A stretch of 45,561 bases of DNA from Candidatus Heimdallarchaeota archaeon. GTDB taxonomy: Archaea > Asgardarchaeota > Wukongarchaeia > Wukongarchaeales > JBHIFL01. The translations under genes were made by a program, and so were the position numbers. The DNA lies in the NCBI GenBank assembly GCA_046761065.1, contig JBHIFL010000034.1, positions 1 to 45,561 of the forward strand, read 5' to 3'. The notes beneath the pieces are model-generated. The model was not told the origin of the DNA and ran no database searches. It saw only the letters and a list, made by a program, of their open reading frames with translations. Shown piece after piece: positions 1,745 to 17,111 of the stretch. The stretch's first letter is position 1. Every line of letters starts with the position of its first letter.

Positions 1745-2377
1745 TTGAGCGACATAAAGCTTAAATCATTCATACATAGCTTCTTAGTGGTTTCGGTACT
1801 TCTTTTGGGCGGCTGCCTTGGTCAAGAAGAGGCAAATCACCAATCACACACAACTTCTTCAGAAACCCCTTCCTATAAGCGTATATTTGATCCTCCCAAA
1901 GAAGCCTACGCTTTCAATCTTACAGATCAGTTCGGCCAGAGGAAAGGATTAAACGACTGGAAAGGCAAAATTGTTGTGTTAGGCGACATTTATACCCGAT
2001 GTCCTGTCGCGTGCCCAATATTAGCCAGATGCTTTGTAGAAATTCAAGACGAATTAGGAGAGATGTTATTCGACCAGGTTGTGTTAGTATTCGTGACTGT
2101 TGATCCGGAATATGATACACCTGAAAAATTAGCCACTTGGACCAACGCATTCAACGGGAAATGGGTTGCGCTCACAGGTACGCTGGAGGAGTGCGAAGAA
2201 GTTTGGAATAATTATGGGATCGTGGTTTATGGGGAGAGTGGAGAAATTGGCCACTCGGCTAAGTTCACATTAATTGATCAACAAGGAATGATTAGGTTTG
2301 ATTATTACTATCCCCCTGAAAGCGAGCAGATACTAAATGACATATATGCTTTGATGGGGACAGTAGCCCGTTTATAG
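1745..2377 (+). CDS. sco: SCO1/SenC copper chaperone, probable lipoprotein
   Basis: YTRCPVACP (CxxxC), VTVDPEYDTPEKL, GHSAKFTLID and a lipobox-like LLLGGC. Confidence 0.93.
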   Translation: MSDIKLKSFIHSFLVVSVLLLGGCLGQEEANHQSHTTSSETPSYKRIFDPPKEAYAFNLTDQFGQRKGLNDWKGKIVVLGDIYTRCPVACPILARCFVEIQDELGEMLFDQVVLVFVTVDPEYDTPEKLATWTNAFNGKWVALTGTLEECEEVWNNYGIVVYGESGEIGHSAKFTLIDQQGMIRFDYYYPPESEQILNDIYALMGTVARL

Positions 2378-2495
2378 CTCCATTAGTAATCTTGTCCGCT
2401 ACCCATTTGCAGTCATGTTAAAGAACATGGAGGTGATTCTCTGTTCACCTCTGGGGTGGGTCTCTGAAAGAGTCGTTGACGAGATTTGAAGGAGT

Positions 2496-3335
2496 TTAGC
2501 GAGTTGAACGGTGCTCAATTTGGCACTCAAGCCCCGAATGTAGGGCTGTGGAAGCAGAGCTTAGTCCGATTAAGAGAAGAAATAGGCTGAGGGAATATAA
2601 GATAGTTGTTTTGATAACCTCCCCTAGGATTGTGAAGTCTAAAGAGCTTGTTAGCGGCCATAAAAGTGTAGATAAAAGAATCATTATTGGCGGCGTCACA
2701 CAAGTTGGGCATGCAACCAAAAGACCCGTAGATGCGCCCGCTAGGCTGAGTTTCAAGCTACCCTGCTTTTCCAGTTCCCGTCTTTGCGTGTAAACCCGGG
2801 AAAAGACAGCTATGTTTACGCCTGTGAACAACGAAAGACAACCCAACACCGTCAACTGATATGTTGAGACAACAAACCCTACTCCGTTCACAGGGGAGAA
2901 CATGAAAATGGGCGCATAACCCGGTGGTCCCTCGTTAATTATTTGGAAATAGGGTTCAAATGAGGATTGGATAAGTAAACCTTGAGCCAGAGAGAAAAGT
3001 AGAGCATAAGAGAATGCGGCAACTATTGCAATTGCCATGTAGGTTTTTTCTCTCAACGTTTCTTTTATTGCCAAATAAGAAACTTGGAAGAACCGCTTCA
3101 ACCCGTGTTTTGGGTTTTCAATGGATACAGTACTAAAGTGAGAACATTTCACACGTATCAGAAAAAGAAACGTAACGATAAGTGATACGCTCATGAGAAA
3201 CAATGGGAAAAACACCAGTTCTCTGCTCATGTAAGTTAAGTGCACCCTTTGGACGTAGACTAATAAGGTTTCCAGCAAAAGAATCAAGAGGACACTTGCA
3301 AGCGATAATGTCTTAATAATATTTATGCGTGTCAA
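2496..3335 (-). CDS. Multi-pass membrane protein with a CPTC motif, possibly metal/thiol handling
   Basis: 279 aa with about 6 hydrophobic segments and LLVACPTC. Confidence 0.75.
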   Translation of the reverse strand: MTRINIIKTLSLASVLLILLLETLLVYVQRVHLTYMSRELVFFPLFLMSVSLIVTFLFLIRVKCSHFSTVSIENPKHGLKRFFQVSYLAIKETLREKTYMAIAIVAAFSYALLFSLAQGLLIQSSFEPYFQIINEGPPGYAPIFMFSPVNGVGFVVSTYQLTVLGCLSLFTGVNIAVFSRVYTQRRELEKQGSLKLSLAGASTGLLVACPTCVTPPIMILLSTLLWPLTSSLDFTILGEVIKTTILYSLSLFLLLIGLSSASTALHSGLECQIEHRSTR

Positions 3336-3396
3336 ATTCTACCCCTATCCCAATAAGTGTTTTATGTCTTGAATAGCGTTGGCTTAATCACATAAG

Positions 3397-3639
3397 CTCA
3401 TATATTTGAATCTAATCATACTGGTTCTATTTGTGATACAAACCATTAACTGTGGTTCACAAAAGACGCTGGGAAAATGATGAAACCTAACGCGGCTTTA
3501 GCTATCCAATCGCGTCTCAATGTTTGCCCAAAAAAATAATAATGCCGAAATATTTATTGTTTCCTTTACTTACGCGTGTGTTCTACTTACCCAAGGATTT
3601 GCAAGACCTAAAAAAGAACTATTGGTGGCTTGTCCCACC
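3397..3639 (+). pseudogene. Internally deleted, inverted remnant resembling the CPTC membrane protein
   Basis: Fragments ALAIQSRL, FTYACVLLTQG and LLVACPT echo YLAIKETL, FSYALLFSLAQG and LLVACPT of 2496-3335 in the same order, broken by stops and frameshifts. Confidence 0.5.
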
Positions 3640-3809
3640 AGATCGGCGATGTTTCCGGCTTGGATCACCACCATGGTCTGGTGGCATGGGCCACATTTCG
3701 GGAGAATCCGAGTACGATTTCAGAAGGAGATCCAAAATAGTAAACAAAGAGTCGATATTTGTAGCTCGTTCGGCATGCATGTGACGACAAGGCCGCGTTC
3801 TTGAAGTTA

Positions 3810-4060
3810 TTAGTGCAGGTCAACTGGATCTTTGGCCTTTGAGTGCACGATTCCACGCCTATTCTCCAACCAAGGCGAAGGCTTGTGTCGGTAGAAGCGA
3901 ATACTCAACCAACTTGCTAAAGTAATAAAAACACTTATCCAGTCAAAACCCTCAATTGTTCGTAGCTCCGGGCCTATCTCTACCCGCATGACTCCAGATT
4001 CACCCACATTCCTGAAGGCATCGTATCCCGTGAAGTGGAATTCTACTAAGATGTCACTAA
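3810..4060 (-). pseudogene. Probable C-terminal remnant of a surface-anchored protein
   Basis: VEFHFTGYDAFRNVGES (beta-rich) then EGFD + hydrophobic stretch + basic residues. The ORF-track start overlaps the upstream stop and T-rich tail, so it is likely spurious. Confidence 0.4.
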
Positions 4061-4101
4061 GGAAGGGACCTATTGCAAGAAAAAGTAAAGGGGGAGAGAG
4101 C

Positions 4102-5265
4102 CTAAGCCACACGGCGTCGTCTAAGAGCCGCTACTAGCAGGGCGCTACCGAGTCCTAGAACAGCCAAAAATCGCAAATCTGCTTCTGCTTCACTCACGGC
4201 AGTCGTCTTCAATGCATCTTCGGAGAGTTGGACAACTTCTTGGGCGTTCTCGATAACTTCCTCAATCATCGTTGTACTGCCCTCTGGATCATGGAACCCA
4301 CGACTACTTCCACTTTCCTCAACCTCGTGCCATAGGTCCTCAACTTCTGTTAATTTGGCCTCAGCTTCAGCTAGTTTTACCGGATCTACTCCAACGGTGG
4401 TGTTAGCCGCAGCAAAGGCTTCACGAGCGGCCTCCATCTGAGCTTCGCCTTCAACGAATTTCTCGTCATATGCTGCTTGGATTTCGTCTTTTTTAACCCA
4501 TGACAACTCGAGATCATCACGGTGACATACCTCTTGGCCACACGCCTCCAGCCATACACCCATTGTGTGATTTGTTACCACGACGGGAGTGCCTCTGTCA
4601 AGAGCCTCACCATACATGTGGCACATGTTACAATCTGCTTCCATGCGTGTGACACTCGGTTCATGCGTGTGACATGTGGTGCATAAGTCGTCAACTTCTG
4701 CTTCCCGAAGTTGGTGTTCATTGACGGGGGTAGAGTGAGGGTCATGGCAAACCGCACAAGTTATTGAATGCTCCGTTTCAGCAAGGGTATCAACCCCACC
4801 CAGAGGCCAAGGTACTGCGCCTTCGGTAGTCATACAATGCACACAACTGGGTTGCTCGAACCCGCGTTCTATGAGGGTTTCCCTTGCATATGCATGTTTA
4901 CTCTGAGCCCATAGTTCATAGGGATCCCCGTGGCCCATATCATGGAAGGGACTATGGCATTCGCCACACAACTCAGCAGCCATGGTGACTGGCATGTGTC
5001 CTTCACCCGCCCCGCCTTGGTATGGGCCGTGGCAGGTCTCACAGGAGATACCCTCGTAGACTGGATCGTTCGTCGCGATAAACCCGTACAGGTCTTGGCC
5101 GATGGGGTTGCCCGTCTCATAGTTGGTGCCATTGACGTGGCACGACCAGCAGACGTCGCCCTCTCGGTTCTCATAAACATAAGAAACGGGAGTCGCATGG
5201 TTCGTCTCGTTCCACGCGTCGTAAATTTCTGAGTGGCAGGGAGAGGAATCTACTGAGGATGGAGG
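4102..5265 (-). pseudogene. Membrane-anchored multiheme cytochrome c, NrfA/c552-like C-terminus, 5' end missing
   Basis: The frame stays open 90 codons upstream of the ATG at 4995, up to TAA at 5266-5268, with no start codon or signal peptide. Motifs: SSPCH (broken), CWSCH, CETCH, CGECH, CVHCM, CAVCH, CTTCH, CNMCH, CGQEVCH, then a helical bundle with SRGFHDP and TM+RRRR. Confidence 0.8.
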
Positions 5266-5384
5266 TTACACAGCGATTCCAAATAGCTGAGGGTCTCATT
5301 GCTAGAGAGTCTTTTGTACTCGACTTTTGTATTGTTTCAAAAGATAATATGTTAAAGTAAGAGGACATTGGCTTGTTCAAAAAA

Positions 5385-5408
5385 TGGAAGAGGGGAGGGA
5401 AAAAAAAG
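5385..5408 (-). terminator. Pyrimidine/T-rich archaeal terminator after the EB_dh-like gene
   Basis: TTTTTTTTTCCCTCCCCTCTTCC directly after the stop on the minus strand. Confidence 0.5.
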
Positions 5409-5409
5409 C

Positions 5410-6669
5410 CTAAGCCGTTCGTCTTCGTCGGTTAGCGGCAACGATCAATAGGATTACATCGAGCGCAACAAACAGAGTCACTATTTCAAATCCAATTTCT
5501 AGTTCACTGACGACTTCACCAAAGGATAGGGCGTATGTCGACGTGGCTTGTGAGTGGTCGGTTCCTCCTCCTTTATTATCCATAACCGCAATGGAAAAAC
5601 CATAGGGGAGTGTCAAATCAGTGAATTGTACGTCATCGGTATTCGTGGCACCATCAGTTTTTGTGATAAGAGCCCGCTTGAATTCACTTGTCCACGTTCC
5701 GTTACTCCATGTGGCAGATTGCATCACATCCCCGCGACTTCCACTGGGCGGTCTTAGTATCCGTTCTGGTACTATCGCATCAAATTGTGCATACTTGTTC
5801 CAGGAGGTGGTGATCTGCTCTATCGTGGCGGTGGCGACTTCGAGGGTTTCACCTCCATCGATCTCACTTTGTGTCAGAACCATGGCATCAATGTAATTCG
5901 CAGGGGCGACTTCTAAGTAGAGGGGTCCGGTTTTATCTGCATTTCTGTTCCGACTGTAGGTGCTGCTACCACTATCACCGTGGCGACCACCATCTTCCGG
6001 CAGATCAGCTGGATCCTCATAAGTGATGTACTTGTCATCTATGTAGCCATTCATCGTTACGGAGCCTGCAGTCACTTCGTGGGTCTCGGGATCAACAGTT
6101 AGCGTGCCTGATTGTGACGCGGAGATGACACCCAGACTCCTTGCCGCTTTCATGTGCCAGATGTCACCAGTCTCTTCGGGGTTCTCTAGGAATGCCCCTG
6201 CTTCACCGTACTGCAGGTGGCATTTTGCCATGCACCCTGCTGTATAGAAGTTGGACATGTTGATGTTCCAAAGAAACGCGATTCGATCCTCGGATTGATC
6301 GGCTTCCGTCGTGGTCCAAGCAGTTCCATCCCAATTCCAGGAGCCACTCCTCGTCATGCTCATAGTCGAGTCGTCCCACTGCGCTAGGACATACAGATCC
6401 GTATCTGTGTGGACAGCTTTAAGTGTCACCGAGATGGCGCCACTGCCGCCGACAGTAGCTATCGTGATACTAGTTGCTTTGGCCCAAGCGGAATCTGTGG
6501 CGTCTCCATCCATTGTTGGAGTTGTTGTCACTTTTACAGATGTCAGTGTCTCTGCTTGTCTGACTAAGGTAGATGAGGCTGTAGTGGTTAATAATGTACT
6601 GATAGACAGCAGAACCAATATTGATAGGGCATAGGTTGCAATTCTTGTTTTGTTCCTACTAGTCTTCAT
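5410..6669 (-). CDS. Ethylbenzene-dehydrogenase-gamma-like (EB_dh/DOMON) heme-binding surface protein
   Basis: Signal peptide, PTMDG..D.AW, LYVLAQWDD, SEDRIAFLW, GCMAKCH, DIWHMKAAR, WTSEFKRAL, C-terminal GFE+TM+RRRR. Confidence 0.88.
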   Translation of the reverse strand: MKTSRNKTRIATYALSILVLLSISTLLTTTASSTLVRQAETLTSVKVTTTPTMDGDATDSAWAKATSITIATVGGSGAISVTLKAVHTDTDLYVLAQWDDSTMSMTRSGSWNWDGTAWTTTEADQSEDRIAFLWNINMSNFYTAGCMAKCHLQYGEAGAFLENPEETGDIWHMKAARSLGVISASQSGTLTVDPETHEVTAGSVTMNGYIDDKYITYEDPADLPEDGGRHGDSGSSTYSRNRNADKTGPLYLEVAPANYIDAMVLTQSEIDGGETLEVATATIEQITTSWNKYAQFDAIVPERILRPPSGSRGDVMQSATWSNGTWTSEFKRALITKTDGATNTDDVQFTDLTLPYGFSIAVMDNKGGGTDHSQATSTYALSFGEVVSELEIGFEIVTLFVALDVILLIVAANRRRRTA

Positions 6670-6715
6670 CTTATTCTTAACTCCTTAATTTTTTATCCAT
6701 ATTTAATATTTGACA

Positions 6716-6834: not shown

Positions 6835-7281
6835 TTAGCCTGGCGGCTCCACGATAAGCTTGCCTGTCATCTCCCAGTGAGATGGAGTGCAGTATATGCC
6901 GCAGTAAAAGTCGTATACTCCTATTTGGGTGGGTGTAAATTCCAAGATAATTGGTTTCATTGGATATGCTGGGCCACTGTCAATGCCCAACTTTGGGATG
7001 ATGAAGCTGTGGATCACGTCTTGGGATAACAGGATAAGACGCACGTTCTGATCAACCGTGACTCGAATTACGTCAGGATCGAACCCCCCATTCTCTTGGA
7101 TTAACATCGTAACAAATATGTCCTCTGGGTCCTGTTTGGCTAGCGCATTGTTGAGCACTGGTATTATCACTGGAGAGAGTGGGATTACCGAGATAGCTGC
7201 TAGAACTGCTAGGAGAGCCACACCCTCCCAGGCGGTTTCTGAGGCACGAGAGTGTTTGACCGTTTGAGAATGTTTGACCAT
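6835..7281 (-). CDS. Membrane-anchored CuA-like cupredoxin (CoxB C-terminal type), 148 aa
   Basis: One TM, SQDVIHSF, YDFYCGIYCTPSHWEMTGKLIVE. Start moved to ATG 7281, just after the upstream stop at 7287. Confidence 0.88.
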   Translation of the reverse strand: MVKHSQTVKHSRASETAWEGVALLAVLAAISVIPLSPVIIPVLNNALAKQDPEDIFVTMLIQENGGFDPDVIRVTVDQNVRLILLSQDVIHSFIIPKLGIDSGPAYPMKPIILEFTPTQIGVYDFYCGIYCTPSHWEMTGKLIVEPPG

Positions 7282-7286
7282 TTTTA

Positions 7287-9221
7287 CTACCCCATCAAAA
7301 GCCAAATGAATACCATCGTCGATGCCATATGAAAAATGCTCATGATATAAGTGGCCCGAGTTGCATTCTTGGGGGCCTTGAAAAGTCGAAGAGCAATTCC
7401 ATGCGTAATCCGAATTGCAACTATAAGGCCGAGGAACACTAATACAGCCTGAACGAATGGGATCAGATCGGGGAATAGCGGTCTCCACGGGATGGTGGCT
7501 GTACCGAAGATGTTCCAGCCCCACCCGAACGGATCGGAGAACGCACGAAGAGGATACGCCCAACTCACGAAGAGTAGTGGTAGCGCAAAGGCTACCCACA
7601 GGAACAGGGCATATGGAGCCAAAGTATAAGTCATAGCGAGAAAGGTTCGTTTGGTGGCACCATGCTGCCCCCCAGCAACCCGATGGGCTGCCCACGAAAA
7701 AGCAAAGAAGATGGCAGGAACGATCACTAGCGGGACTGAGGCAGTAAGTGCTGCCCATTTGAGCCAATTCACAAAACCTTCTGCGGTAGGGACAAGCAGA
7801 TGGGCCGTATAGAGGTTTGCACCGAATTTAACCCCCATACTTGCCCAGTCTTTTATCCAAAAGTAGGGACCTAATAAAACGAATTCGTAAAAGATCACCA
7901 AGGAGAACCTTACGAAACCCATCCATGCTTCACTTGTATTCGTCCTTACTTTCGCGGTTAGATCCTTACCAGGCTTTTGGAGCTTCAACGTCATGTTATC
8001 CATTGGGCATGACTTCAAACATTCAAAGTCCAATCCACAGTTAGTGTTCGATTCGTTTCCGCCCGGATATAACTTCCACGGACATCCGTACCCGCGAGGA
8101 CTTCCTCTCATACATGCTTTTGTGGTGCATTTCTTACAAATCGACTTGTCTTTAGACCTCACGCTTAGGGAGGCATAGGTAGAGTGGTAACCGATGTATG
8201 CGCCTGCTGGACAGATGTATCGACAGAAGTTTCGCTCACCTCCAAAGACCAAATGCACCACAAAGGCAATGATGATCAACGTTAGGAAAAGGAGAGCGGA
8301 GATAAATGGTTGAGTCACTAACCATGGCGATATGAGCGATATTCCCAAGAACGTTAATGTCGGAATCCAAATGTTACGAAGCCGCTTAGGCCATGTCTTA
8401 TTCAGAGAGAGCTCATTCCGTGGCTCACGAACCGAATAGGTTCGACGCCTTGTCAACCAAAGGCCATAGGCCGGTAGGGGACAGGTGGCACACCAGATTC
8501 TTCCACCCAATAGGATCATGATCTCTACTGCCGCGAACCAAAGGATCCAGACAACGGCTATCGCGAAATTAAATCCCCCCATCGGGTTGCCGAAGAATCC
8601 TGTAAGTAGAACTATCATAAATATGAAGAGAGATGGCCATACGAGGAAGAAATAGACACCACGCCACCTTAAAAATCTTCCCAAGGCCTTCCCTATGATG
8701 GGAAGGCGTAGCAGGTCTATCCCTTCATCTTGCGTGAGCATTGGCGAACCAGATGAGCTATTCTTTTGTAGTGTTAAAACAGAGCCCACCGTTAAGACCA
8801 TCGTTGAACCAATGAAGATATAGAACGGATAATTGGGTTCCACAATCAAGTCCGCTACCATAAACGGGTGTAAAGGGCCGCAAGGTAGAGAACATCTGAT
8901 CTTGAATTTCCCTGGCCTGTCAAACAGTATAGGCTCAGTATCTACGACCTGAAAAGGAAAAACGTCTAGGAAGATGTCCTTGCCATCTATGTAGAAGCCA
9001 TGGGCTGTATCATTTGCTGTAACTCTAAAAATAATGGTTTCTCCCACTTGAACCGTTATTTTTTCAGGGTCCCAACCGAATTGGTACGCTATTAGCTCAA
9101 TAATGCGAGGTTCTTGACTTGTGGCTGTTCGAACAGTCGTCACGGCAGCAATGGTCAGAAGGATAGGTGCAATAATAAGAACAATTAATAACGCGGTACG
9201 GCGCCATCGCAATTTACTCAC
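7287..9221 (-). CDS. Cupredoxin fused to a NosR/NapH-like 4Fe-4S polytopic membrane domain
   Basis: DTAHGF and CSLPCGPLHPFM, then GRIWCATCP, FCRYICP, CKKCTTKAC, CGLDFECLKSCP and many TM segments. Confidence 0.9.
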   Translation of the reverse strand: MSKLRWRRTALLIVLIIAPILLTIAAVTTVRTATSQEPRIIELIAYQFGWDPEKITVQVGETIIFRVTANDTAHGFYIDGKDIFLDVFPFQVVDTEPILFDRPGKFKIRCSLPCGPLHPFMVADLIVEPNYPFYIFIGSTMVLTVGSVLTLQKNSSSGSPMLTQDEGIDLLRLPIIGKALGRFLRWRGVYFFLVWPSLFIFMIVLLTGFFGNPMGGFNFAIAVVWILWFAAVEIMILLGGRIWCATCPLPAYGLWLTRRRTYSVREPRNELSLNKTWPKRLRNIWIPTLTFLGISLISPWLVTQPFISALLFLTLIIIAFVVHLVFGGERNFCRYICPAGAYIGYHSTYASLSVRSKDKSICKKCTTKACMRGSPRGYGCPWKLYPGGNESNTNCGLDFECLKSCPMDNMTLKLQKPGKDLTAKVRTNTSEAWMGFVRFSLVIFYEFVLLGPYFWIKDWASMGVKFGANLYTAHLLVPTAEGFVNWLKWAALTASVPLVIVPAIFFAFSWAAHRVAGGQHGATKRTFLAMTYTLAPYALFLWVAFALPLLFVSWAYPLRAFSDPFGWGWNIFGTATIPWRPLFPDLIPFVQAVLVFLGLIVAIRITHGIALRLFKAPKNATRATYIMSIFHMASTMVFIWLLMG

Positions 9222-9564
9222 CTCTTAAGGATTTCTGAACGGAGTCAAGCACCTTTTCATACATTTCCCATACCTGGGTTGCTAGATCTAAGCCTGCTCG
9301 GTATATATCATTCATTTCTTCGACCGAATCAACAGTCCTACGGTTAGTCATGTCCAGTACAGAAAAAAGTAGCTTCAAGGCCGCGTATCTACATTCATCT
9401 CTCTTGTTGAGACCTTCGGAACATGCTTTTTCGACATATTTGACTGCTTCCTTCACAGGTGTCATGTCACTATCCGAATCGATGCGTGACCAATAATATT
9501 TGCGTAGGACTTTACGCAGTTGTGTGTATATTTGCTCTAGCTTGCTAGGGCCTGAAGTTGCCAT
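9214..9564 (-). CDS. Hypothetical helical protein, first gene of the cupredoxin operon
   Basis: 116 aa ORF overlapping the next start, preceded by an AT-rich promoter region. Confidence 0.75.
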   Translation of the reverse strand: MATSGPSKLEQIYTQLRKVLRKYYWSRIDSDSDMTPVKEAVKYVEKACSEGLNKRDECRYAALKLLFSVLDMTNRRTVDSVEEMNDIYRAGLDLATQVWEMYEKVLDSVQKSLRGE

Positions 9565-9700: not shown

Positions 9701-10573
9701 ATGAGAACAGAGAATCTTAAGAAAATTATCCTACAGATGTTTATGGATAGAGAATTCTACGGGTATGATGTTCATAAAACGCTTATGTCTGAAGATATTA
9801 AGATTGAGATTAGTCGTCTTTATCGGGTTCTAAATGAGATGCTGAGGGAGGGGTTGCTTGAAGGCTATTGGGAGAAAAGTCAATTTGGGCCTAGGAAGAG
9901 GATCTACAAACTTGGTGGGAAGGGAAGAGAGAAGCTCGATCAAATTCTCTTAGACGCTATTATAACCGTCCATAGCTTCTATGAAAAGTACCTATTGAGT
10001 CTTCCTCCTGAATTTAACACTTTTAATATCATTATCAATCAGTTTGTTGATAAGCTGGAGAGAGAGTGTAACATTGGCTACCTTACTAATAAATACTCAG
10101 TAATGCATGAGAGGATGATAAACACACTCCACAATAATATACTTAATGGGAAGCTTTACTTCATTAAACCGGACTCGGTACAGGCAGATCTTAACCTCAA
10201 TAATCTACTCAGTTTAGATGGTGTTTTTGATGATATTCCGATAAAGAATGATTATTTTGACTTTCTAATCGTTATAGGTATTCCCCCAAAGAAATCCCTG
10301 GCGGAATCTATAAGGGAGTGGCATAGAGTACTCAACAAAAACGGGAAGCTGGCGATTTTGATACCTACAGTACTCATACACAGTTACAAAGACCCAATGA
10401 CAATTGGTGAATTCATAGAGAAATACGAACACGACAAAAAAGGAAATCTCGAACAAATTACCCAATTATCTATTCAAGCAATGCTAAAAAACTTTTTCAA
10501 TAAAGTTGAAGCAAGAGAGATTGTTCACTTTACCGTTTTCCAAGTATCAGAACCATGTATTCTTCGGGAATAG
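9701..10573 (+). CDS. PadR-family winged-helix regulator fused to a methyltransferase-11-like domain
   Basis: FYGYDV...LYRVLNEM.REGLL...GPRKRIYKL at the N-terminus; IPIKNDYFD...IREWHRVLNKNGKL at the C-terminus. Confidence 0.88.
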   Translation: MRTENLKKIILQMFMDREFYGYDVHKTLMSEDIKIEISRLYRVLNEMLREGLLEGYWEKSQFGPRKRIYKLGGKGREKLDQILLDAIITVHSFYEKYLLSLPPEFNTFNIIINQFVDKLERECNIGYLTNKYSVMHERMINTLHNNILNGKLYFIKPDSVQADLNLNNLLSLDGVFDDIPIKNDYFDFLIVIGIPPKKSLAESIREWHRVLNKNGKLAILIPTVLIHSYKDPMTIGEFIEKYEHDKKGNLEQITQLSIQAMLKNFFNKVEAREIVHFTVFQVSEPCILRE

Positions 10574-11192: not shown

Positions 11193-11840
11193 CTATGAGT
11201 TATTTAGAATAGCTTTCTCAAAATTGAGTGTGTATGTAAAGAATGTTCCAAAACTTGCGTGTGTTTGAAATCCTGCCCTCCCACACCATTTTTTTACTGT
11301 GCGGCGAAGGGGGTAATCTGGATCTGGGAGGAATTCACTGATCGAAAGGATACCGTCCTGTTTAAGAACACGGCGTAGCTCATTCAAGGCGCCTATTCTG
11401 TTCGAAATTTCCGCCAAAACCGTAACCATGGCAACCCGGTCAAGGCTTTGGGCTCGGATCGGGAGTTCCGAAGCGGATGCTATGATGGGCGTAATATTTG
11501 CTAGTCTTTTTTGAGATACTTTTGTTTTCACCACACGTACCATCTTTGGTTGGATATCAACTGCGAGTACAGTGCTATCTGCAGATAGTCGATTTGCAAT
11601 TTCAAATGTAAAGGTTCCTGGACCACATCCGAGATCCATTACGGTGAAATTGGGCTCAAGCATGAGTCGATCTGCAATAGATGTTGGTTTTTGCAATTTA
11701 ATTCTAATACGATTATCCAAGATGTATCTTACGAAGTGTGGGGTCGGGAAATGAAGAAACCTCCATCCTATCCAAAAACCTATGAACACGATAAGAATTA
11801 TTATCCCTAGGAATTCAAATCCAAAACTCAGGGAACTCAT
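11193..11840 (-). CDS. Class I SAM-dependent methyltransferase with N-terminal TM
   Basis: VMDLGCGPG, AVDIQ, ALNELRRVLKQDG. Confidence 0.92.
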   Translation of the reverse strand: MSSLSFGFEFLGIIILIVFIGFWIGWRFLHFPTPHFVRYILDNRIRIKLQKPTSIADRLMLEPNFTVMDLGCGPGTFTFEIANRLSADSTVLAVDIQPKMVRVVKTKVSQKRLANITPIIASASELPIRAQSLDRVAMVTVLAEISNRIGALNELRRVLKQDGILSISEFLPDPDYPLRRTVKKWCGRAGFQTHASFGTFFTYTLNFEKAILNNS

Positions 11841-12206: not shown

Positions 12207-12653
12207 TCATTTCTCCCGCCTTAAGACTTTTGCAGGAAACCATCCTCGAGGGACATCAGTAATGTGGACTCTCTTCAGAGTTATTCTAACAACTGAAGTG
12301 GTAACCATTTCGAAGAAAGGCCTATACTCAGGCACTCGTTCTAGCACCAATCTTCTTCCCTTTACTTCCTCATTGCCCTCCACCACCTCAGCCATACCAA
12401 CAGCCTGAACAAACTTATCTGGAGTCCTGTTATCTATTGACAACGCCACTATCGGATTTTTCTTCAGATTTGACATACCTTGGCCACGATCTTCAATAAT
12501 ACAATAAATATATAATCCCTCCACTGCAAAGAACATTGTTGTAGCCCAAGGCTTTTTATCACTTTCAGTGGCTAATGTGCAAACCTTACAATCTTTGAGA
12601 ATCTCCTGCATTACCCGATATACTTCTTCCTCGCTTAGATCCCTTTGCGACAT
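12207..12653 (-). CDS. Pyridoxamine-5'-phosphate-oxidase-like split-barrel protein
   Basis: CTLATESDKKPW, NLKKNPIVALSID, VQAVGMAEVV. Confidence 0.85.
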   Translation of the reverse strand: MSQRDLSEEEVYRVMQEILKDCKVCTLATESDKKPWATTMFFAVEGLYIYCIIEDRGQGMSNLKKNPIVALSIDNRTPDKFVQAVGMAEVVEGNEEVKGRRLVLERVPEYRPFFEMVTTSVVRITLKRVHITDVPRGWFPAKVLRREK

Positions 12654-12882: not shown

Positions 12883-13911
12883 TTAACTTCTACCTTTTTC
12901 GATAGATAGAAGATTGAAGAATCCAAGTAAAAGCAAAGAATACCCAATCAACTTACCAATCATTTCGTAAGCATCCGAGGAACCAGCTCCACATACAAAT
13001 AGGACTAACCAACCGAACAGAACATATTTCCAAGAATGGGCATGGGTTTTATATGCTGATTTTAGAAAAATCCATCCAAGAGGGAGAACCGCGGCCGGAA
13101 ATACCACGTAGAATATATAGTTGTACGTCATGGAGAATAAAGGCATATCATAACCGATTGTCCATCTCCACGGCTCAGAAATAATCATTTCGAAAAGCCG
13201 AAAGTATTCAAGAGCATTTCGTTGTAAATATAATCCAATAGATACACCTATAGCCACATAGATGAGAGAAGGTAGTAACAGAAACCTTAACTTCTTTCCC
13301 TCTTGTTGTGCCAATTGGATAGCCAAGATAAGACTTACTAGAGCAACCACATTGTATAAGAAAGCAACAAGGCTTATTAGGCTGATTTCAAGGATATTTG
13401 GTAACCGAAAGGGAAAGAGCGCCGTATGAATGCCCCAACTGAGAAGAAACAAAGCCATACTGAGAAGGTAGATTGTACTACCTCTCTGTCCAGGTTTTTT
13501 TTCTGAGAACACCTCATGAAGCATCACAAAAGAAACCATGGGAGTTATTCCTATTGACAATACTGCAATAACTCTCAGATAATGTGTTACATGGGAAAAA
13601 AAATTTGCAGAAATCAACAGGAGACTTGTTGTTACTATAATTATGAAAGATACTACTAAAAAGATCTTAAAATGCGGTGTACGTTCTGCAGCAAGGTAAA
13701 GAATCCAAGCAGAGACGATTGCAGAGTATATAGTCAGTGTGGTGAAAATTCCTTCAAGAATGACTCCCAAAGATGCCGGAGGTACCCCTACAGGGAAAGA
13801 ACCAACGTATGAAATCGTGAAGGATAAGATATAGCCTCCCACCAAGAGCTCTAGTAAGAATTGCTTATCAGAATTGACAGTATTATCCAAGAATGAATCC
13901 ATGGAAATCAA
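12883..13911 (-). CDS. Polytopic membrane protein, about 10 TM
   Basis: 342 aa hydrophobic ORF at the end of the Rieske/cytochrome b gene run. Confidence 0.8.
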   Translation of the reverse strand: MISMDSFLDNTVNSDKQFLLELLVGGYILSFTISYVGSFPVGVPPASLGVILEGIFTTLTIYSAIVSAWILYLAAERTPHFKIFLVVSFIIIVTTSLLLISANFFSHVTHYLRVIAVLSIGITPMVSFVMLHEVFSEKKPGQRGSTIYLLSMALFLLSWGIHTALFPFRLPNILEISLISLVAFLYNVVALVSLILAIQLAQQEGKKLRFLLLPSLIYVAIGVSIGLYLQRNALEYFRLFEMIISEPWRWTIGYDMPLFSMTYNYIFYVVFPAAVLPLGWIFLKSAYKTHAHSWKYVLFGWLVLFVCGAGSSDAYEMIGKLIGYSLLLLGFFNLLSIEKGRS

Positions 13912-13985
13912 CCATAGTTATTGCAGTAAAAGCGCTTTTAATATGTGAGAGGGGGAATTTTCTGATCATTTTACCAAAAATACGG

Positions 13986-14765
13986 TTACTTGGGAATAAT
14001 CTTCCATTCTCGTCTCATGAGGACGATAAACGTCCCAATACAAAGTATTGAGACACCCAAAAGTAGCACTATCTCATATGCAGGGAAATCTGCCCGGCTC
14101 TCTATTCTGAAAATCTGGAATTCAGCAGTCACCCCACCACCGGTTCCATGGTATCCCCGATCTGTTCCTGTTATAAACGCAAATGCAATACCGTAAGAGA
14201 CCCCGGAAACCATTGTGATATCTTCATCTTGAGGATCACTGACCAATGGCATCTTCATCTCAATTACCACATTTCCGGTAGATCGCCCCACTTTTATTTT
14301 ACCATCTTCTTGGATATCTTTTACAAAGCTGATTTGTCCTGATTGACTTTTCGCTCCCTTACCATCTTCAAAAGTTATACTATTCCCATTAACCCTAATA
14401 ATCTTGATATCAGACTCTTCGGGCATACAGACATCTTTTACACGGCTGGGTACGATTTGAGTGGATACATAAAAGATTGAGGCATTCTCAATACTCGCTT
14501 TTGCATCCCAAGCAATATACAGCGAAACACCATCGTGTGCTAAAAACACATCGTCATCCTGAAGAGTGAGTGGGGAACTAAAGGGATGTAACGGGGAAAA
14601 AACTCTCCCATATTCTTCTTCTGTGATCTGACCGTCTATTAACGGGAGTTTCAGAAGTTTGGGGACAATATTAGTAGGTACCGTTTCCTGCGCCTTTGTG
14701 TAAGCGGTTCCAAATATTCCCAACAGTATAATAATAATTAGAAAACTTTTCTGCTTTATTTTCAT
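13986..14765 (-). CDS. Secreted DOMON/CBM9-like protein with C-terminal anchor, candidate heme b protein
   Basis: Signal peptide, PLIDGQITEEEY, LAHDGVSLYIAW, candidate ligands in VCMP and GYHG, PAYE+TM+RR. Confidence 0.7.
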   Translation of the reverse strand: MKIKQKSFLIIIILLGIFGTAYTKAQETVPTNIVPKLLKLPLIDGQITEEEYGRVFSPLHPFSSPLTLQDDDVFLAHDGVSLYIAWDAKASIENASIFYVSTQIVPSRVKDVCMPEESDIKIIRVNGNSITFEDGKGAKSQSGQISFVKDIQEDGKIKVGRSTGNVVIEMKMPLVSDPQDEDITMVSGVSYGIAFAFITGTDRGYHGTGGGVTAEFQIFRIESRADFPAYEIVLLLGVSILCIGTFIVLMRREWKIIPK

Positions 14766-15031
14766 GTCACTTCCTCCGAATATGTTTCACGGTATCGTGG
14801 TTCATCAATGTAGCTTTTCGCTAGTAAGGAAATCAATATACTTGCTGATGTTAGAAAGCAGAAAATAGCCAATAAGAGAATAAGTTCTTCCGCGCGCGCC
14901 GCATAATATCCGGGACCAAGCATAAACCGTAATTGATAGAGTATGTGCACTATTAAGCTAAGCTGTGCTAGAAAGAGTACCCAATCAAGGACGGTGAGAA
15001 TTGTAGGTATTTCTCGCCCTCTAGTCATCAT
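14762..15031 (-). CDS. Small 2-TM protein
   Basis: 89 aa with 4-nt overlaps on both neighbours. Confidence 0.75.
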   Translation of the reverse strand: MMTRGREIPTILTVLDWVLFLAQLSLIVHILYQLRFMLGPGYYAARAEELILLLAIFCFLTSASILISLLAKSYIDEPRYRETYSEEVT

Positions 15032-15303
15032 GGTTTCTCACCTTCTCCAACAAGTCGTTCGAATAATCTGTTGGGTTTTTTAATCCGGCCAGCATCCCTA
15101 TCAATCTGGTAAAAAAAGGCTCCTACAATTATTAAACTAAAGAATAGACCAATAGTCGCAAATAAGATCTGCATTACTAAATTTAGATTGAATTGAGTGG
15201 TAAGTTTTGTATCGAAGATCCCCCAGAGAACATTGATACATACAATACCCAGAACAATACAGCTGAGAATGAAAAGATAACCGATGCTTTTTGACACTAC
15301 CAT
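15028..15303 (-). CDS. Small 2-TM protein
   Basis: ATG 15303 follows GGTGG and the subunit IV stop at 15318; two hydrophobic helices. Confidence 0.7.
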   Translation of the reverse strand: MVVSKSIGYLFILSCIVLGIVCINVLWGIFDTKLTTQFNLNLVMQILFATIGLFFSLIIVGAFFYQIDRDAGRIKKPNRLFERLVGEGEKP

Positions 15304-15317
15304 AAATACCACCGTGC

Positions 15318-15770
15318 CTAAGGAATAAAGGGAATTATTGTCAATACAATCCAACTGATAATGGCAAATATTGCAACTGCTACGATAACTTTCCGGTCTC
15401 GAACGCGAAGGCTTTCTTTTCTGTCGATGAACGGAACAATTAGCAATATCACCCCAAGCACCACAAAAAGGATGGGAACTCCGACTTTTACTAAATCTGC
15501 GGGAAGATAACGGGGAAGGAACCTCAAGGTAATATACATCCAGTTAAAATACCATGCGGGCCCAATTTCTTCGGCTACGATGGCAGGAGAGGATGGTGGT
15601 GTTAACTCATAAGGGAGCAGTACAGAAACCGATAAAAGGGCCCCTATCACAAGAAAAATGCAGGCCACTTCCTTTAAAAGGTGATTGGGGAAAAATGGAA
15701 TAATAAATTCGGATTCTTCTGCTGCGAATTCACTTAATTCGGTATCTGTTCGTTCATTGCTTCGTTCCAT
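15318..15770 (-). CDS. petD: Cytochrome b6f subunit IV / QcrC-like
   Basis: PFFPNHLLKE, PEWY-like GPAWYFNWMY, LIVPFIDR. Confidence 0.9.
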   Translation of the reverse strand: MERSNERTDTELSEFAAEESEFIIPFFPNHLLKEVACIFLVIGALLSVSVLLPYELTPPSSPAIVAEEIGPAWYFNWMYITLRFLPRYLPADLVKVGVPILFVVLGVILLIVPFIDRKESLRVRDRKVIVAVAIFAIISWIVLTIIPFIP

Positions 15771-15792
15771 CGATTACGACCTCTAATTACGA

Positions 15793-16464
15793 TTAAAGTG
15801 GACGAGCAATGCCATGCTTCTTGACTAAGTAGAAGTGGACAACCAGTAAAGCAACCGTCGCGATAGGAAATACAACGAGATGGAATGCATAGAATCTAGC
15901 CAAGGTAGGGCCTGCTATTCTTTCTCCTGCCATGAGGAATCTTGCGATAGTGGGCCCAATATATGGGATGGTAGCAGCGATTGTGATCCCGATATTTGAC
16001 GCAAGAAATGCTTCCTCATCCCAAGGCAGTAAATACCCGGAAAACCCAAATCCAAGTGTTATAAAAAGCAAAAGGGTGCCAGCAATCCAGTTAAGCTCCC
16101 GTGGCGACTTATATGCCCCGGAGAAAAAGACTCGAATCATATGAAGAATACAGAAGAAGATCATGGCATTAGCAGACCAACGATGCAAGTTTCTGATAAC
16201 CGAGCCAAATGGTACTTCACTCATAATGAACCCGATGCTGTTATATGCTTGCTCGGGATTTGGTTGATAGTGGACTGCAAGAGTTACGCCTGTGACCCCA
16301 GACACGATGAAACACAGAAATGTGATACCTCCCAAACAATAGGCGGGATTAATACTTGAATGCTTTGGAATTGTCTTGGGGAAGAACGTTCCTAATTTGG
16401 TTCTTTTATCGATCCAGTTCCAGATCTTTTGGCTCATGTTTTGGGTTCTTTCGCTCTCGGTCAT
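15793..16464 (-). CDS. petB: Cytochrome b6 / QcrB
   Basis: YCLGGIT, RNLHRWSAN, ILHMIRVF, GYLLPWD, FYAFH...VH, C-terminal GIARPL. Confidence 0.95.
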   Translation of the reverse strand: MTESERTQNMSQKIWNWIDKRTKLGTFFPKTIPKHSSINPAYCLGGITFLCFIVSGVTGVTLAVHYQPNPEQAYNSIGFIMSEVPFGSVIRNLHRWSANAMIFFCILHMIRVFFSGAYKSPRELNWIAGTLLLFITLGFGFSGYLLPWDEEAFLASNIGITIAATIPYIGPTIARFLMAGERIAGPTLARFYAFHLVVFPIATVALLVVHFYLVKKHGIARPL

Positions 16465-17111
16465 TGTGATGCGCTCCCGGGCTTTACTCCAACAGCATAG
16501 ATGTTTCCGTCAACCATTTCCAGCTCGATTTGAGCTAGAGGTATCGTTACAGGTCCACCTAGGACACTTCCATCATATGGTGAAAAGCCGGCCTTATGGC
16601 ATGGGCAAAACATCGCTCCAGGTAGATCTTCCGACCACCCTGGCCAGTTAAGGAGAGTTCCTGCAGCAATTGTATCGATTTCAGTCCGTGTTTTATAAGT
16701 GGTTACACAGGCAAAGTGGGTGCACCGAGTAATAAATGCTAAATACCCCTCAATGCCAATATTAGGGTCACCGAGATTCAAAAGCTCTGCAGGCTCACCC
16801 ACATATGCTTTGGTAGCATGATAAATGAAAAAAGTCACTTGATCTTTTTCTGGAAGCGGACTAATCACATGGCGCTCGATCCGGTATTCCTGAACAGTAC
16901 GTGGTTCTGCAAATAGAGCTGCGGCGAATGGCGTCAGTGCGAGCCCACCCACAACCGCTTTGAGCATCATTCTACGGGTAATCTTTGCTCCTTGCTCTTC
17001 AGCGAGATCAGAAAGGGATGCATTTTCATCACTAGATGGATCTATTCGTTTGGGTTCACTTGGATTAAATTTAAACGCATTTTCCTTATCAGCATCTCGT
17101 TCTTTTGCCAT
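16461..17111 (-). CDS. petC: Rieske iron-sulfur subunit
   Basis: Tat motif TRRMMLK + TM, CTHFAC, CPCH, VLGGP. Confidence 0.93.
   Translation of the reverse strand: MAKERDADKENAFKFNPSEPKRIDPSSDENASLSDLAEEQGAKITRRMMLKAVVGGLALTPFAAALFAEPRTVQEYRIERHVISPLPEKDQVTFFIYHATKAYVGEPAELLNLGDPNIGIEGYLAFITRCTHFACVTTYKTRTEIDTIAAGTLLNWPGWSEDLPGAMFCPCHKAGFSPYDGSVLGGPVTIPLAQIELEMVDGNIYAVGVKPGSASQ

What the first reader, a model, noticed from the sequence alone, without database searches (positions are those of the whole stretch)
1745..17111. Copper/heme respiratory island with no terminal oxidase subunit I in the window
Seen: a Rieske/b6/IV complex, two DOMON-type heme proteins, two CuA-like cupredoxin domains, SCO, a NosR/NapH-like Fe-S membrane domain, a multiheme cytochrome and a dedicated regulator within 15 kb, with no heme-copper oxidase subunit I, NosZ or molybdoenzyme. 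Established: SCO loads CuA sites and NosR/NapH-type domains pass electrons from quinol. Inference: a surface electron-transfer chain from quinol through CuA and heme carriers to a multiheme enzyme or extracellular acceptor, a combination I do not recognise in archaea.
Basis: partly seen in the sequence, partly recalled or inferred. Interest (0 to 1): 0.8.

Follow-up and report, generated by a model that had tools for sequence, protein, structure and literature searches.

The report
Copper and haem electron-carrier gene patchwork
An uncultured archaeon, probably Asgard, carries two intact membrane modules side by side that hand electrons to outward-facing copper and haem carriers, with no oxygen- or nitrous-oxide-reducing enzyme found in the assembly. 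The 15-kb stretch is a patchwork that includes broken genes, not one conserved respiratory island.

Summary
No haem-copper oxidase subunit I, cytochrome bd or NosZ was found in the window, which is the whole contig, or in the 91%-complete assembly.

The "island" is three unrelated units.
- **Rieske/b6 operon (12883-17111).** Seven genes: Rieske, cytochrome b6, subunit IV, two small membrane proteins, a DOMON-fold protein and a 9-helix membrane protein. Four metagenome contigs keep this order, without the copper genes.
- **Copper block (6835-9564).** A higher-GC3 block with a 116-aa protein, a CuA cupredoxin fused to a NapH-like iron-sulfur membrane protein, and a small CuA protein. This module occurs in at least 302 species genomes. 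It matches the untested AF0141-AF0144 module of Archaeoglobus fulgidus, and this scan met the fusion in two other genomes. An EB_dh/DOMON protein with a conserved CX3CH follows it.
- **Gene debris.** The multihaem cytochrome lacks its first 62 residues, including the signal peptide and first haem cysteine.

Best reading: two independent modules that feed surface carriers, with the terminal acceptor encoded elsewhere or unknown. A copper-handling role for the CuA module is the main rival.

Interest is moderate. I class it as a new variant of a known kind.

The parts
386..1008 (-). Decayed duplicate of the 3' end of the EB_dh gene plus its downstream spacer (pseudogene)
   Evidence: 74-81% nucleotide identity to 5240-5784. 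The protein match to EB_dh residues 268-394 carries 5 TGA and 1 TAG.
1745..2377 (+). SCO1/SenC copper chaperone, lipoprotein-like signal
   Evidence: Pfam PF02630 at 2.9e-25. CPVAC (CxxxC) and a later His are visible in the translation. SCO lies just downstream of the CuA pair in L065 and L066.
2496..3335 (-). 6-helix membrane protein of unknown function with an intramembrane CPTC motif
   Evidence: Only weak hits (DUF7546 at 0.014). Hydropathy. Not found beside the CuA module elsewhere.
3590..3725 (.). Fragment of a PNPOx-like gene containing a long hairpin
   Evidence: 86% identical to C102:4706-4842, the 3' end of a 166-aa PNPOx-like gene, and 74% identical to L139:6497-6633. Fold z-score is -2.2 on the minus strand.
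3810..4112 (-). Remnant of a surface protein gene (last ~80 codons only)
   Evidence: Aligns to residues 429-507 of the 510-aa protein at C35:31346-32878.
4102..5265 (-). 5'-truncated OcwA/NrfA-like multihaem cytochrome with a C-terminal membrane anchor (probable pseudogene)
   Evidence: Open frame of 387 codons, but the first start codon comes 90 codons in. There is no signal peptide and the first motif reads SSPCH. Aligns to C35 paralogs from residues 63 and 78. Best solved relative is 6i5b, which I recall to be OcwA, at 9.5e-11.
5410..6669 (-). EB_dh-family DOMON protein with signal peptide, C-terminal anchor and a conserved CX3CH
   Evidence: PF09459 at 1e-25. CMAKCH holds its only two Cys, and the motif is present in the window protein and in 7 of its 8 closer homologs checked; L061, cut to 197 residues, lacks it. 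The paralog on C14 is 65-69% identical.
6835..7281 (-). Small membrane-anchored CuA cupredoxin
   Evidence: COX2 at 1.2e-6 and CoxB at 5e-14. H91, C127, C131, H135 and M138 are invariant in 10 orthologs. Its start lies 5 nt after the stop of the upstream gene.
7287..9221 (-). 644-aa fusion: TM helix, outward CuA domain, NapH-like membrane and cytoplasmic Fe-S part, and a C-terminal 5-helix part
   Evidence: CuA ligands and 10 Cys are at least 96% conserved in 49 homologs. The profile matches the Thermus ba3 CuA domain at 1e-23. The model has pLDDT 83, and Foldseek matches the CuA domain only. Topology.
9214..9564 (-). 116-aa helical cytoplasmic protein, overlapping the start of the fusion gene
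   Evidence: Homologs lie about 80 bp upstream on the same strand in 13 archaeal loci. No family hit.
9701..10573 (+). PadR-type regulator with an extra C-terminal domain, divergent from the CuA operon
   Evidence: PF03551 at 1.9e-10. GC3 is 0.40, unlike the CuA block. Not conserved beside the module elsewhere.
11193..11840 (-). UbiE/COQ5-like SAM methyltransferase with an N-terminal TM helix (possible quinone methylase)
   Evidence: PF01209 at 2.7e-16 among generic methyltransferase hits.
12207..12653 (-). PNPOx-like flavin-binding protein
   Evidence: PF01243 at 6.1e-11. PNPOx-like genes also follow the Rieske operon in L139 and lie on C102.
12883..13911 (-). 9-helix membrane protein, last gene of the Rieske operon
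   Evidence: No family hit. Conserved in position at 70% identity in L139 and L140.
13986..14765 (-). DOMON/EB_dh-fold surface protein with C-terminal anchor, in the place of cytochrome c1/f
   Evidence: ESM Atlas feature score 0.94 and TM 0.67 to EB_dh clusters. 64-77% identical orthologs sit in the same operon slot.
14762..15354 (-). Two small two-helix membrane proteins (89 and 108 aa)
   Evidence: Conserved in order in L139-L142. Hydropathy.
15318..15770 (-). Subunit IV (C-terminal half of a split cytochrome b)
   Evidence: PF00032 at 3.2e-9.
15793..16464 (-). Cytochrome b6 with the YCLGG cysteine
   Evidence: PF00033 at 2.2e-48. Motif seen in the translation. The closest species-genome hit is a Magnetobacteriaceae MAG at 43%.
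16461..17111 (-). Rieske iron-sulfur protein with a twin-arginine signal
   Evidence: CTHFAC and CPCH boxes and an RRMMLK signal in the translation. NCBIfam Rieske models at 6e-6. Paralogs on C30 and C31.

Best explanation
The stretch is a juxtaposition of three units, not one respiratory island.

**1. Rieske/b6 operon (12883-17111).** Seven genes encode a b6-type Rieske/cytochrome b quinol-oxidising complex. A membrane-anchored DOMON-fold protein sits where cytochrome c1 or f would be, and probably takes the Rieske electron on the outer face.

**2. Copper block (3810-9221, raised GC3; its CuA genes at 6835-9221 plus the adjoining 116-aa gene at 9214-9564, whose GC3 is 0.42).** This probably arrived by gene transfer. 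It carries the widespread but biochemically untested CuA module, of the Archaeoglobus AF0141-AF0144 type:
- a 116-aa cytoplasmic protein;
- a membrane protein with iron-sulfur clusters inside and a CuA domain outside;
- a second, anchored CuA protein.

It most likely works like NosR, PceC or NapH, taking electrons from menaquinol or a cytoplasmic donor and delivering them to outward-facing carriers and client reductases. CuA would stand in for the flavin domain of NosR. SCO would load the copper. An EB_dh/DOMON protein with a probable covalently bound haem follows, apparently with its own promoter.

**3. Gene debris.** This includes the truncated multihaem cytochrome.

The terminal acceptor enzyme is not in the window. 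Candidates elsewhere in the genome are the intact OcwA-like cytochromes on C35, a Tat-exported molybdoenzyme on C132 and a secreted multicopper oxidase on C1.

**Shown:** gene content, cofactor ligands, conservation patterns and truncations. **Inferred:** direction of electron flow, partners and acceptor.
For: **Rieske operon**
- Order is kept in L139-L142 at 64-86% identity.
- In L139 it is followed by orthologs of C102 and C117 genes, not by CuA genes.

**CuA module**
- At least 302 hits in species genomes.
- CuA ligands and Fe-S cysteines are conserved.
- Best solved relative is the ba3 CuA domain.
- Topology puts CuA outside and Fe-S inside.
- Neighbours in 84 loci include Tat molybdoenzymes (7), NapC/NirT cytochromes (7), reductive dehalogenases (7), TatC (7) and CcmF (5). 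They also include CopA (12), SCO (4) and, in a smaller earlier sample, thioredoxin and CcdA. That mix fits clients plus a CuA maturation line.
- AF0141-AF0144 is upregulated in a strict anaerobe, and the module lies beside nosZ in Ferroglobus placidus (PMC4543118).
- 3 of 5 carrier genomes lack COX1.

**Patchwork**
- GC3 is 0.48-0.52 for 3810-9221, against 0.34-0.46 (mostly 0.35-0.38) for the Rieske operon genes.
- Truncations and duplicates are documented.

**Genome**
- No COX1, no bd and no NosZ body.
- MenA is present.
- ccm genes and intact OcwA-like cytochromes lie on C35.
- DOMON + Fe-S + NrfD gene sets lie on C117 and, with the third gene cut off and unscanned, on C102.
Against: - No experiment exists for any member of the CuA-NapH family. 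How electrons would cross from cytoplasmic Fe-S to outer CuA without a membrane cofactor is unexplained, as it is for NosR and NapH.
- The C-terminal 5-helix part has no conserved His, Cys or Met, and its role is unknown.
- Copper-homeostasis-like neighbours (PCYCGC in 14 loci, CopA in 12, His kinases in 22, ABC/MacB exporters in 20 and 9) are at least as common as respiratory ones.
- No acceptor enzyme is linked to either module in this genome.
- The assembly is 8.2% contaminated. I tested membership of C34 only by composition.
- EB_dh and the CuA genes share raised GC3 and strand, so they may be functionally linked after all.
Confidence: 0.55

Rival explanations
1. The CuA-NapH module, SCO and neighbours form a copper-handling system rather than a respiratory conduit. 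The Fe-S membrane protein would act like CcoG, a cupric reductase, or would oxidise Cu(I). The cupredoxin domains would bind or redox-cycle copper on the outer face.
For: - Fer4_5/NapH-like proteins include CcoG, a cupric reductase (reviews found; details from my own knowledge).
- Neighbours in 84 loci: PCYCGC protein directly upstream in 14, CopA-type ATPase in 12, His kinases in 22, ABC ATPase in 20 with MacB/FtsX permease in 9.
- A third CuA-motif protein (C31:8767-9858) has a Met/Asp-rich stretch and lies in an island with CopA, thioredoxin and mercuric-reductase-like genes.
- Stand-alone Rieske paralogs lie near CopA-like genes on C30 and C31.
Against: - All five CuA ligands are near-invariant in both proteins. 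This site is known only as an electron-transfer centre.
- CopA, SCO, thioredoxin and CcdA are exactly what CuA maturation needs.
- Reductive dehalogenases, Tat molybdoenzymes and NapC-type cytochromes are also recurrent neighbours.
- AF0141-AF0144 responded to CO plus sulfate, not to copper.
Confidence: 0.15
2. All units form one chain: quinol to Rieske/b6 and the NapH-like protein, then CuA and DOMON carriers, then a multihaem cytochrome that reduces an extracellular acceptor.
For: - All units lie within 15 kb, mostly on one strand, and every carrier is anchored on the outer face.
- The multihaem family is OcwA-like. I recall OcwA as a surface terminal reductase of a Gram-positive metal reducer.
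- Intact paralogs with ccm genes exist on C35 and could act in trans.
- The genome is unusually rich in DOMON-fold proteins for its phylum.
Against: - There is no conserved co-occurrence.
- The cis multihaem gene lacks its start, signal peptide and first haem cysteine.
- GC3 separates the CuA block from the Rieske operon.
- EB_dh has its own AT-rich upstream region with a TATA-like box.
- From general knowledge, CuA potentials near +240 mV are poorly suited to reducing iron oxides.
Confidence: 0.15
3. The higher-GC block from 3.8 to 9.6 kb is recently transferred DNA in decay and does nothing useful in this host. Only the Rieske operon is functional.
For: There are four gene remnants within 5 kb. 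GC3 is foreign-looking. None of the 40 sampled relatives has an ortholog of the 644-aa protein.
Against: The 644-aa, 148-aa, 116-aa and 419-aa frames are intact and keep all cofactor ligands. A 68%-identical ortholog exists in another sample (P0002).
Confidence: 0.1

Closest known systems
[quoted passage not shown] 2015, PMC4543118)
   Same: A NapH homolog with about 9 helices and cytoplasmic ferredoxin motifs, flanked by two cytochrome oxidase subunit II-like copper proteins, in a strict anaerobe. The same family as the window's genes: an A. fulgidus member is 39% identical (P0052), and Archaeoglobus MAG loci are 38-52% identical.
   Different: In the window one CuA domain is fused to the membrane protein, and a 116-aa gene precedes it. 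In Ferroglobus the module lies beside nosZ, but here no NosZ was found. The function is untested in every case.
NosR, PceC (RdhC) and NapH membrane Fe-S proteins
   Same: A polytopic membrane core with CxxxCP-type motifs and cytoplasmic [4Fe-4S] motifs, plus an extracytoplasmic redox domain at the N-terminus. They are thought to supply electrons to outer-face reductases. Reductive dehalogenases and Tat molybdoenzymes recur as neighbours.
   Different: The outer domain is a CuA cupredoxin, not an FMN-binding domain. There is an extra conserved 5-helix C-terminal part. Scores to NapH models are far below their cut-offs.
CcoG (FixG) cupric reductase
   Same: Fer4_5-type membrane polyferredoxin linked to copper supply. 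CopA-type ATPases are frequent neighbours.
   Different: CcoG has no CuA domain and serves cbb3 oxidase assembly. No haem-copper oxidase was found here.
Cytochrome b6f and Firmicute-type Rieske/b6 complexes. From memory, also the archaeal Rieske/b units that use a haem b glycoprotein or an EB_dh-like subunit (Sulfolobus CbsAB-SoxL2N, haloarchaeal NarB/NarC).
   Same: Split cytochrome b with the YCLGG cysteine, subunit IV, and a Rieske protein with the disulfide-type boxes. A non-cytochrome-c acceptor subunit is used.
   Different: The third redox subunit is a DOMON-fold protein. Two small subunits and a 9-helix protein are specific to this operon. No nitrate reductase or oxidase is adjacent.
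Solved multihaem cytochromes 6i5b and 6qvm; I recall these as OcwA of Thermincola potens and OmhA of Carboxydothermus ferrireducens
   Same: Best solved relatives of the window's multihaem frame and its C35 paralogs. These are surface-anchored multihaem proteins.
   Different: The window copy lacks the first 62 residues. It is anchored by a C-terminal helix.

Membership tests
CuA cupredoxin (cytochrome oxidase subunit II type) | Cupredoxin fold with the ligand set His, Cys-x3-Cys-x3-His-x2-Met | tested here: met
   Both proteins carry the full pattern. The ligands are near-invariant in 49 homologs of the fusion and invariant in 10 of the small protein. The profile matches the Thermus ba3 CuA domain at 1e-23, and Foldseek gives 2cua at TMt 0.71.
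Haem-copper oxidase (subunit II as part of an oxidase) | A subunit I (COX1) partner in the genome | tested here: not met
   PF00115 has no match in the 91.5%-complete assembly, while 9 of 14 control genomes ring. 3 of 5 other carrier genomes also lack it.
Nitrous oxide reductase NosZ (clades I, II and lactonase-type III) | A catalytic propeller or lactonase body N-terminal to the CuA domain | tested here: not met
   NF052460 and TIGR04246 match only their last ~100 positions (the CuA part), at three places and far below cut-off. The PF18764 search was uninformative because no control rang.
NapH/NosR/CcoG polyferredoxins (Fer4_5) | Membrane helices ending in CxxxCP-type motifs, plus two cytoplasmic ferredoxin-type cysteine clusters | tested here: inconclusive
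   One CxxCP, one CxxxCP and seven further conserved Cys are present. However, Fer4_5 scores 19.3 bits against a cut-off of 22, and napH scores 29 bits against a cut-off of 213. This is a related family, not an ortholog.
NosR | N-terminal extracytoplasmic FMN-binding domain | tested here: not met
   Residues 35-130 are a CuA cupredoxin, and there is no FMN_bind hit.
Rieske/cytochrome b6-type complex | Rieske boxes, a four-helix cytochrome b6 and a separate subunit IV | tested here: met
   PF00033 at 2.2e-48 and PF00032 at 3.2e-9. CTHFAC and CPCH boxes and YCLGG are in the translations.
Rieske/cytochrome b6-type complex | A cytochrome f, c1 or di-haem c subunit | tested here: not met
   No CxxCH protein is in the operon. 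A DOMON-fold protein occupies the slot in the window and in all four related contigs, though L142 ends within that gene.
EB_dh / DOMON haem proteins | EB_dh-fold domain, and association with a type II DMSO-reductase-family molybdoenzyme | tested here: inconclusive
   The domain is met (91.6 bits against a cut-off of 33.3). No molybdoenzyme is in the window, and the only Tat molybdoenzyme found is on C132. Haem binding itself is not testable with these tools. A conserved CX3CH suggests covalent haem.
Exported multihaem c-type cytochrome | An export signal and intact CxxCH motifs | tested here: not met
   There is no start codon or signal peptide, the first motif reads SSPCH, and 62 residues are missing relative to the C35 paralog.
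SCO1/SenC | Thioredoxin fold with CxxxC and a distal His, located outside the cytoplasm | tested here: met
   PF02630 scores 89 bits against a cut-off of 22.8. The motif and a lipobox-like signal are in the translation.

The most novel reading that the evidence does not exclude
This Asgard lineage runs an anaerobic surface respiratory network built on DOMON haem and CuA carriers. In that network the CuA-NapH complex, or a CuA-DOMON pair, is itself a new kind of terminal reductase that needs no haem-copper oxidase, NosZ or cytochrome c. The acceptor could be a metal oxide, copper, an N-oxide or trace oxygen.
Probability: 0.1. Interest if true: 0.85.

Novelty: new variant of a known kind. Interest (0 to 1): 0.5.

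Why it matters
**Asgard physiology.** A 2025 preprint on cultured relatives of eukaryotes reports that Heimdall-type Asgard archaea lack cytochrome c, blue-copper carriers and a complete complex III, and leaves the role of their cytochrome b open (10.1101/2025.02.26.640444). If contig and bin assignment hold, this genome shows an Asgard lineage with:
- a full b6-type Rieske complex;
- CuA carriers;
- many DOMON haem proteins;
- ccm genes and OcwA-like cytochromes;
- no oxygen reductase found.

That points to anaerobic respiration or surface electron transfer rather than aerobic metabolism.

**The CuA-NapH module.** It is present in hundreds of anaerobic archaeal and bacterial species and has never been purified. 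Working out its function would explain CuA sites that exist without oxidases. It may also bear on how NosR-type proteins deliver electrons.

Tried and rejected
- I could not read neighbourhoods of metagenome proteins such as P0002, and I could not test CuA-CuA or CuA-DOMON docking.

**Searches that led nowhere**
- The first metagenome scan with the DOMON-like protein alone found nothing. The alignment-based scan worked.
- Cytochrome b6 and EB_dh scans of species genomes gave only distant hits without shared neighbours.
- Rfam and tRNA scans of the window were empty.
- Foldseek matched only the CuA domain of the 644-aa model. No solved analogue of the membrane part appeared.
- NCBIfam and Pfam gave nothing for the 116-aa, 279-aa and 342-aa proteins. 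The ESM Atlas gave no family for the 342-aa protein.
- The proteobacterial proteins that share the C-terminal helices of the 644-aa protein have no Pfam family.

**Ideas considered and rejected**
- The spacer upstream of the multihaem frame is not a multi-copy element. It has only two copies, both on this contig.
- A hidden upstream exon or intron for the multihaem gene is unlikely. No signal-peptide-like frame exists in the 144-nt spacer.

**Inconclusive checks**
- The M24 peptidase gene gave only 42% best identity to relatives, so it does not settle the taxonomic origin of the contig.
- PF00116 alone undercounts CuA domains. A third one, on C31, appeared only with NosZ models and a motif scan.

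Full report
**What the window is.** The window is the whole of contig C34 of a 4.42-Mb, 234-contig assembly rated 91.5% complete and 8.2% contaminated. Earlier notes of this scan call the genome an Asgard, Heimdall/Hod-type archaeon. I did not verify that independently. The ESM Atlas clusters nearest to two operon proteins are mostly Promethearchaeota. The contig's tetranucleotide composition is typical of the bin, ranking 50th of 70 in distance from the median.

**Checking the observation.** Pfam, NCBIfam and direct reading confirm nearly all the listed parts.
- SCO at 1745-2377.
- An EB_dh/DOMON protein at 5410-6669.
- A small CuA protein at 6835-7281.
- A 644-aa protein at 7287-9221, with an N-terminal CuA domain followed by a NapH-like membrane Fe-S part.
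- A PadR regulator at 9701-10573.
- Rieske, cytochrome b6 and subunit IV at 17111-15318.
- The second "DOMON" (13986-14765) has no Pfam hit. The ESM Atlas places it by features (0.94) and by structure (TM 0.67) next to EB_dh clusters.

The multihaem cytochrome is the exception. Its frame is open from 5265, but the first start codon is 90 codons in. No signal peptide exists in any frame of the 144-nt spacer. The first haem motif has lost its first cysteine, reading SSPCH. Two intact paralogs on C35 have signal peptides, and the window copy aligns to them only from residue 63 or 78.

The ORF that follows (3810-4112) equals only the last ~80 residues of a 510-aa C35 protein. Bases 3590-3725 are a fragment of a PNPOx-like gene found whole on C102. 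Bases 386-1008 are a decayed copy of the EB_dh 3' end and its spacer, with six stops. The left third of the finding is therefore littered with gene remnants.

**No terminal oxidase.**
- COX1 and cytochrome bd models find nothing in the genome, while the controls ring.
- NosZ models of clade II and of the lactonase-type clade III hit only their CuA ends, at three places.
- These places are the two window domains and a third CuA-motif protein at C31:8767-9858, which a six-frame motif scan also finds. PF00116 alone had missed it.
- The only respiratory-type molybdoenzyme is a Tat-signal protein cut by the end of C132. The other Molybdopterin hit is an FwdB-like gene.
- One secreted multicopper oxidase lies on C1.
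- Absence is limited by the 8.5% of the genome that is missing.

**The Rieske operon is a unit of its own.** An alignment-based metagenome scan returned four contigs (L139-L142) at 64-86% identity. Between them they show the same seven genes in the same order: Rieske, b6, subunit IV, a 108-aa protein, an 89-aa protein, the DOMON-like protein and a 9-helix protein. Only L139 is long enough to hold all seven. In L139, the longest, the operon is followed by orthologs of genes that in this genome lie on C102 and C117. These are PNPOx-like proteins, then a DOMON protein, a Tat Fe-S protein and an NrfD protein. The CuA genes are not there.

MenA is also on C102, so a menaquinone pool is plausible, although MqnA/D and MqnC were not found. 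The cytochrome has the YCLGG cysteine, and the Rieske protein has the disulfide-type boxes. No relative of the DOMON-like protein was found in 300 genomes of the phylum. Cytochrome b6 matched one of 40 relatives, at 33%.

**The CuA module is a separate, widespread unit.**
- *Distribution.* The 644-aa protein has no ortholog in 40 relatives. It belongs to a family with 64 clusters in the protein collection and at least 302 hits in species genomes. These span Archaeoglobi, Thermoplasmatota, Nitrososphaeria, Hadarchaeota, Hydrothermarchaeota, many Chloroflexota and Desulfobacterota, and others. In a quick tree the window protein sits in the archaeal clade with no obvious donor.
- *Cofactor sites.* The five CuA ligands and ten cysteines of the Fe-S part are conserved in at least 96% of 49 homologs. 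The C-terminal five helices have no conserved His, Cys or Met. The small CuA protein keeps all ligands in 10 of 10 orthologs.
- *Structure and topology.* A profile of the family matches the Thermus ba3 CuA domain at 1e-23. The AlphaFold model (pLDDT 83) matches solved structures only in that domain. Hydropathy and charge put CuA outside and the Fe-S part inside.
- *Independence from oxidases.* Three of five carrier genomes have no COX1. In the other two it lies 85 and 600 kb away.

**Neighbours of the CuA module in 84 loci.**

| Neighbour | Loci |
|---|---|
| A second CuA gene | at least 38 |
| His kinase | 22 |
| ABC ATPase | 20 |
| PCYCGC protein, directly upstream | 14 |
| The 116-aa family (archaea only, directly upstream) | 13 |
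| CopA-type ATPase | 12 |
| MacB/FtsX permease | 9 |
| Tat molybdoenzyme | 7 |
| NapC/NirT-type cytochrome | 7 |
| Reductive dehalogenase | 7 |
| TatC | 7 |
| CcmF | 5 |
| SCO | 4 |

Cytochrome b6, Rieske and EB_dh each appear once, 7-10 kb from the module and each in a different locus. I read the copper, thiol and SCO neighbours as the CuA maturation line, and the Tat reductases as clients. The same list also feeds the copper-handling rival.

**Literature.** In A. fulgidus, AF0141-AF0144 was among the few transcripts upregulated on CO plus sulfate. That cluster is a NapH homolog with cytoplasmic Fe-S sites flanked by two oxidase subunit II-like genes. [quoted passage not shown] The genes lie beside nosZ in Ferroglobus placidus. 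I found no biochemical study. The scan itself had met the fusion in two other archaeal genomes.

**Is the island one unit?** I think not.
- GC3 is 0.48-0.52 for 3810-9221. It is 0.34-0.38 for six of the seven Rieske operon genes (cytochrome b6 is 0.46), 0.40 for PadR, and 0.36 for the C14 paralog of EB_dh.
- EB_dh has its own AT-rich upstream region with a TATA-like box.

The genome-wide picture does give the general idea some support. This genome has at least seven DOMON-superfamily proteins, on C14, C30, C34 (two), C54, C102 and C117. On C117, and probably on C102, they are paired with Fe-S and NrfD quinol modules. Among 40 relatives, only one other genus has any. The genome also holds ccm genes, two intact OcwA-like cytochromes and two NrfD proteins on C35.

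**Mechanism, with what is shown and what is inferred.**
- *Shown:* cofactor ligands, topology, operon conservation and the truncations.
- *Inferred for the Rieske complex:* it oxidises menaquinol and reduces its DOMON subunit.
- *Inferred for the CuA-NapH complex:* it moves electrons from quinol or a cytoplasmic donor to its own CuA and then to the anchored CuA protein. SCO metallates both.
- *Inferred for EB_dh:* it may be a further carrier. Its only two cysteines form a CX3CH kept in the window protein and in seven of its eight closer homologs checked.
- *Unknown:* the final acceptor.

**Verdict.**
- The single-chain interpretation is only partly supported.
- The region is best seen as two independent carrier-feeding modules plus debris.
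- The interesting core is an already-noticed but unstudied CuA-NapH family, found here in an oxidase-less Asgard genome that is rich in DOMON proteins.

Noticed in passing
window 5410-6669; also L047 (C14), L055-L060: The EB_dh/DOMON subfamily of this protein has a conserved CX3CH. It is present in the window protein and in 7 of its 8 closer homologs checked, and it holds the only two cysteines of the window protein. This suggests a covalently bound haem in a fold known for haem b.
   Followed up: partly
G000 C31:8767-9858: A third CuA-motif protein (FHCSIYCGVGHEDM) has a Met/Asp-rich stretch and C-terminal helices. It lies in an island with a CopA-type ATPase, thioredoxin, OsmC-like genes and a mercuric-reductase-like gene. 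PF00116 missed it.
   Followed up: partly
G000 C30:4365-4943 and C31:2983-3550, 25753-26031: Stand-alone Rieske paralogs (up to 60% identical) lie near P-type ATPase genes. Each is followed by the same small gene set (83 aa, 217 aa, 83-90 aa). The C31:2983 copy looks frameshifted.
   Followed up: no
L145 (G000 C35:28000-45111) and L146 (C132): A cluster holds CcmF, CcmABCE-like genes, two OcwA-like cytochromes (7 and 8 CxxCH), two NrfD-like proteins and a Tat Fe-S protein, and it ends at the contig edge. C132 starts inside a Tat molybdoenzyme next to TatA/C and MoeA/MobB. The two contigs may join.
   Followed up: partly
L143 (C102:5389-7999) and L144 (C117:2457-5976): Two gene sets begin with a DOMON protein and a Tat 4Fe-4S protein. 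On C117 an NrfD protein follows (Pfam). On C102 the third gene is cut by the fetched stretch and was not scanned. They look like quinol-to-DOMON modules. In the relative L139, the C117-type set lies 2.6 kb after the Rieske operon.
   Followed up: partly
window 3623-3696: A long hairpin sits inside a conserved 137-nt piece. The piece is also on C102 (86%) and L139 (74%), and is probably the 3' end of a PNPOx-like gene rather than an RNA gene.
   Followed up: partly
window 23570-25119: A nitroreductase-fold protein overlaps a second NapH-like (Fer4_5, 1.1e-11) membrane protein. This is another small outer-face redox pair on the same contig.
   Followed up: no
L013-L030, match at about 10001-10400: The last ~100 residues of the 644-aa protein are 30-45% identical to the C-terminal end of ~480-aa proteins without any Pfam family in Limnobacter, Spongiibacter, Perlucidibaca and SAR11-type genomes.
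   Followed up: partly
window 143-197 and G000 C128:1-55: A 55-nt stretch near the contig start is 93% identical to the first bases of contig C128. It may be a repeat that broke the assembly.
   Followed up: no
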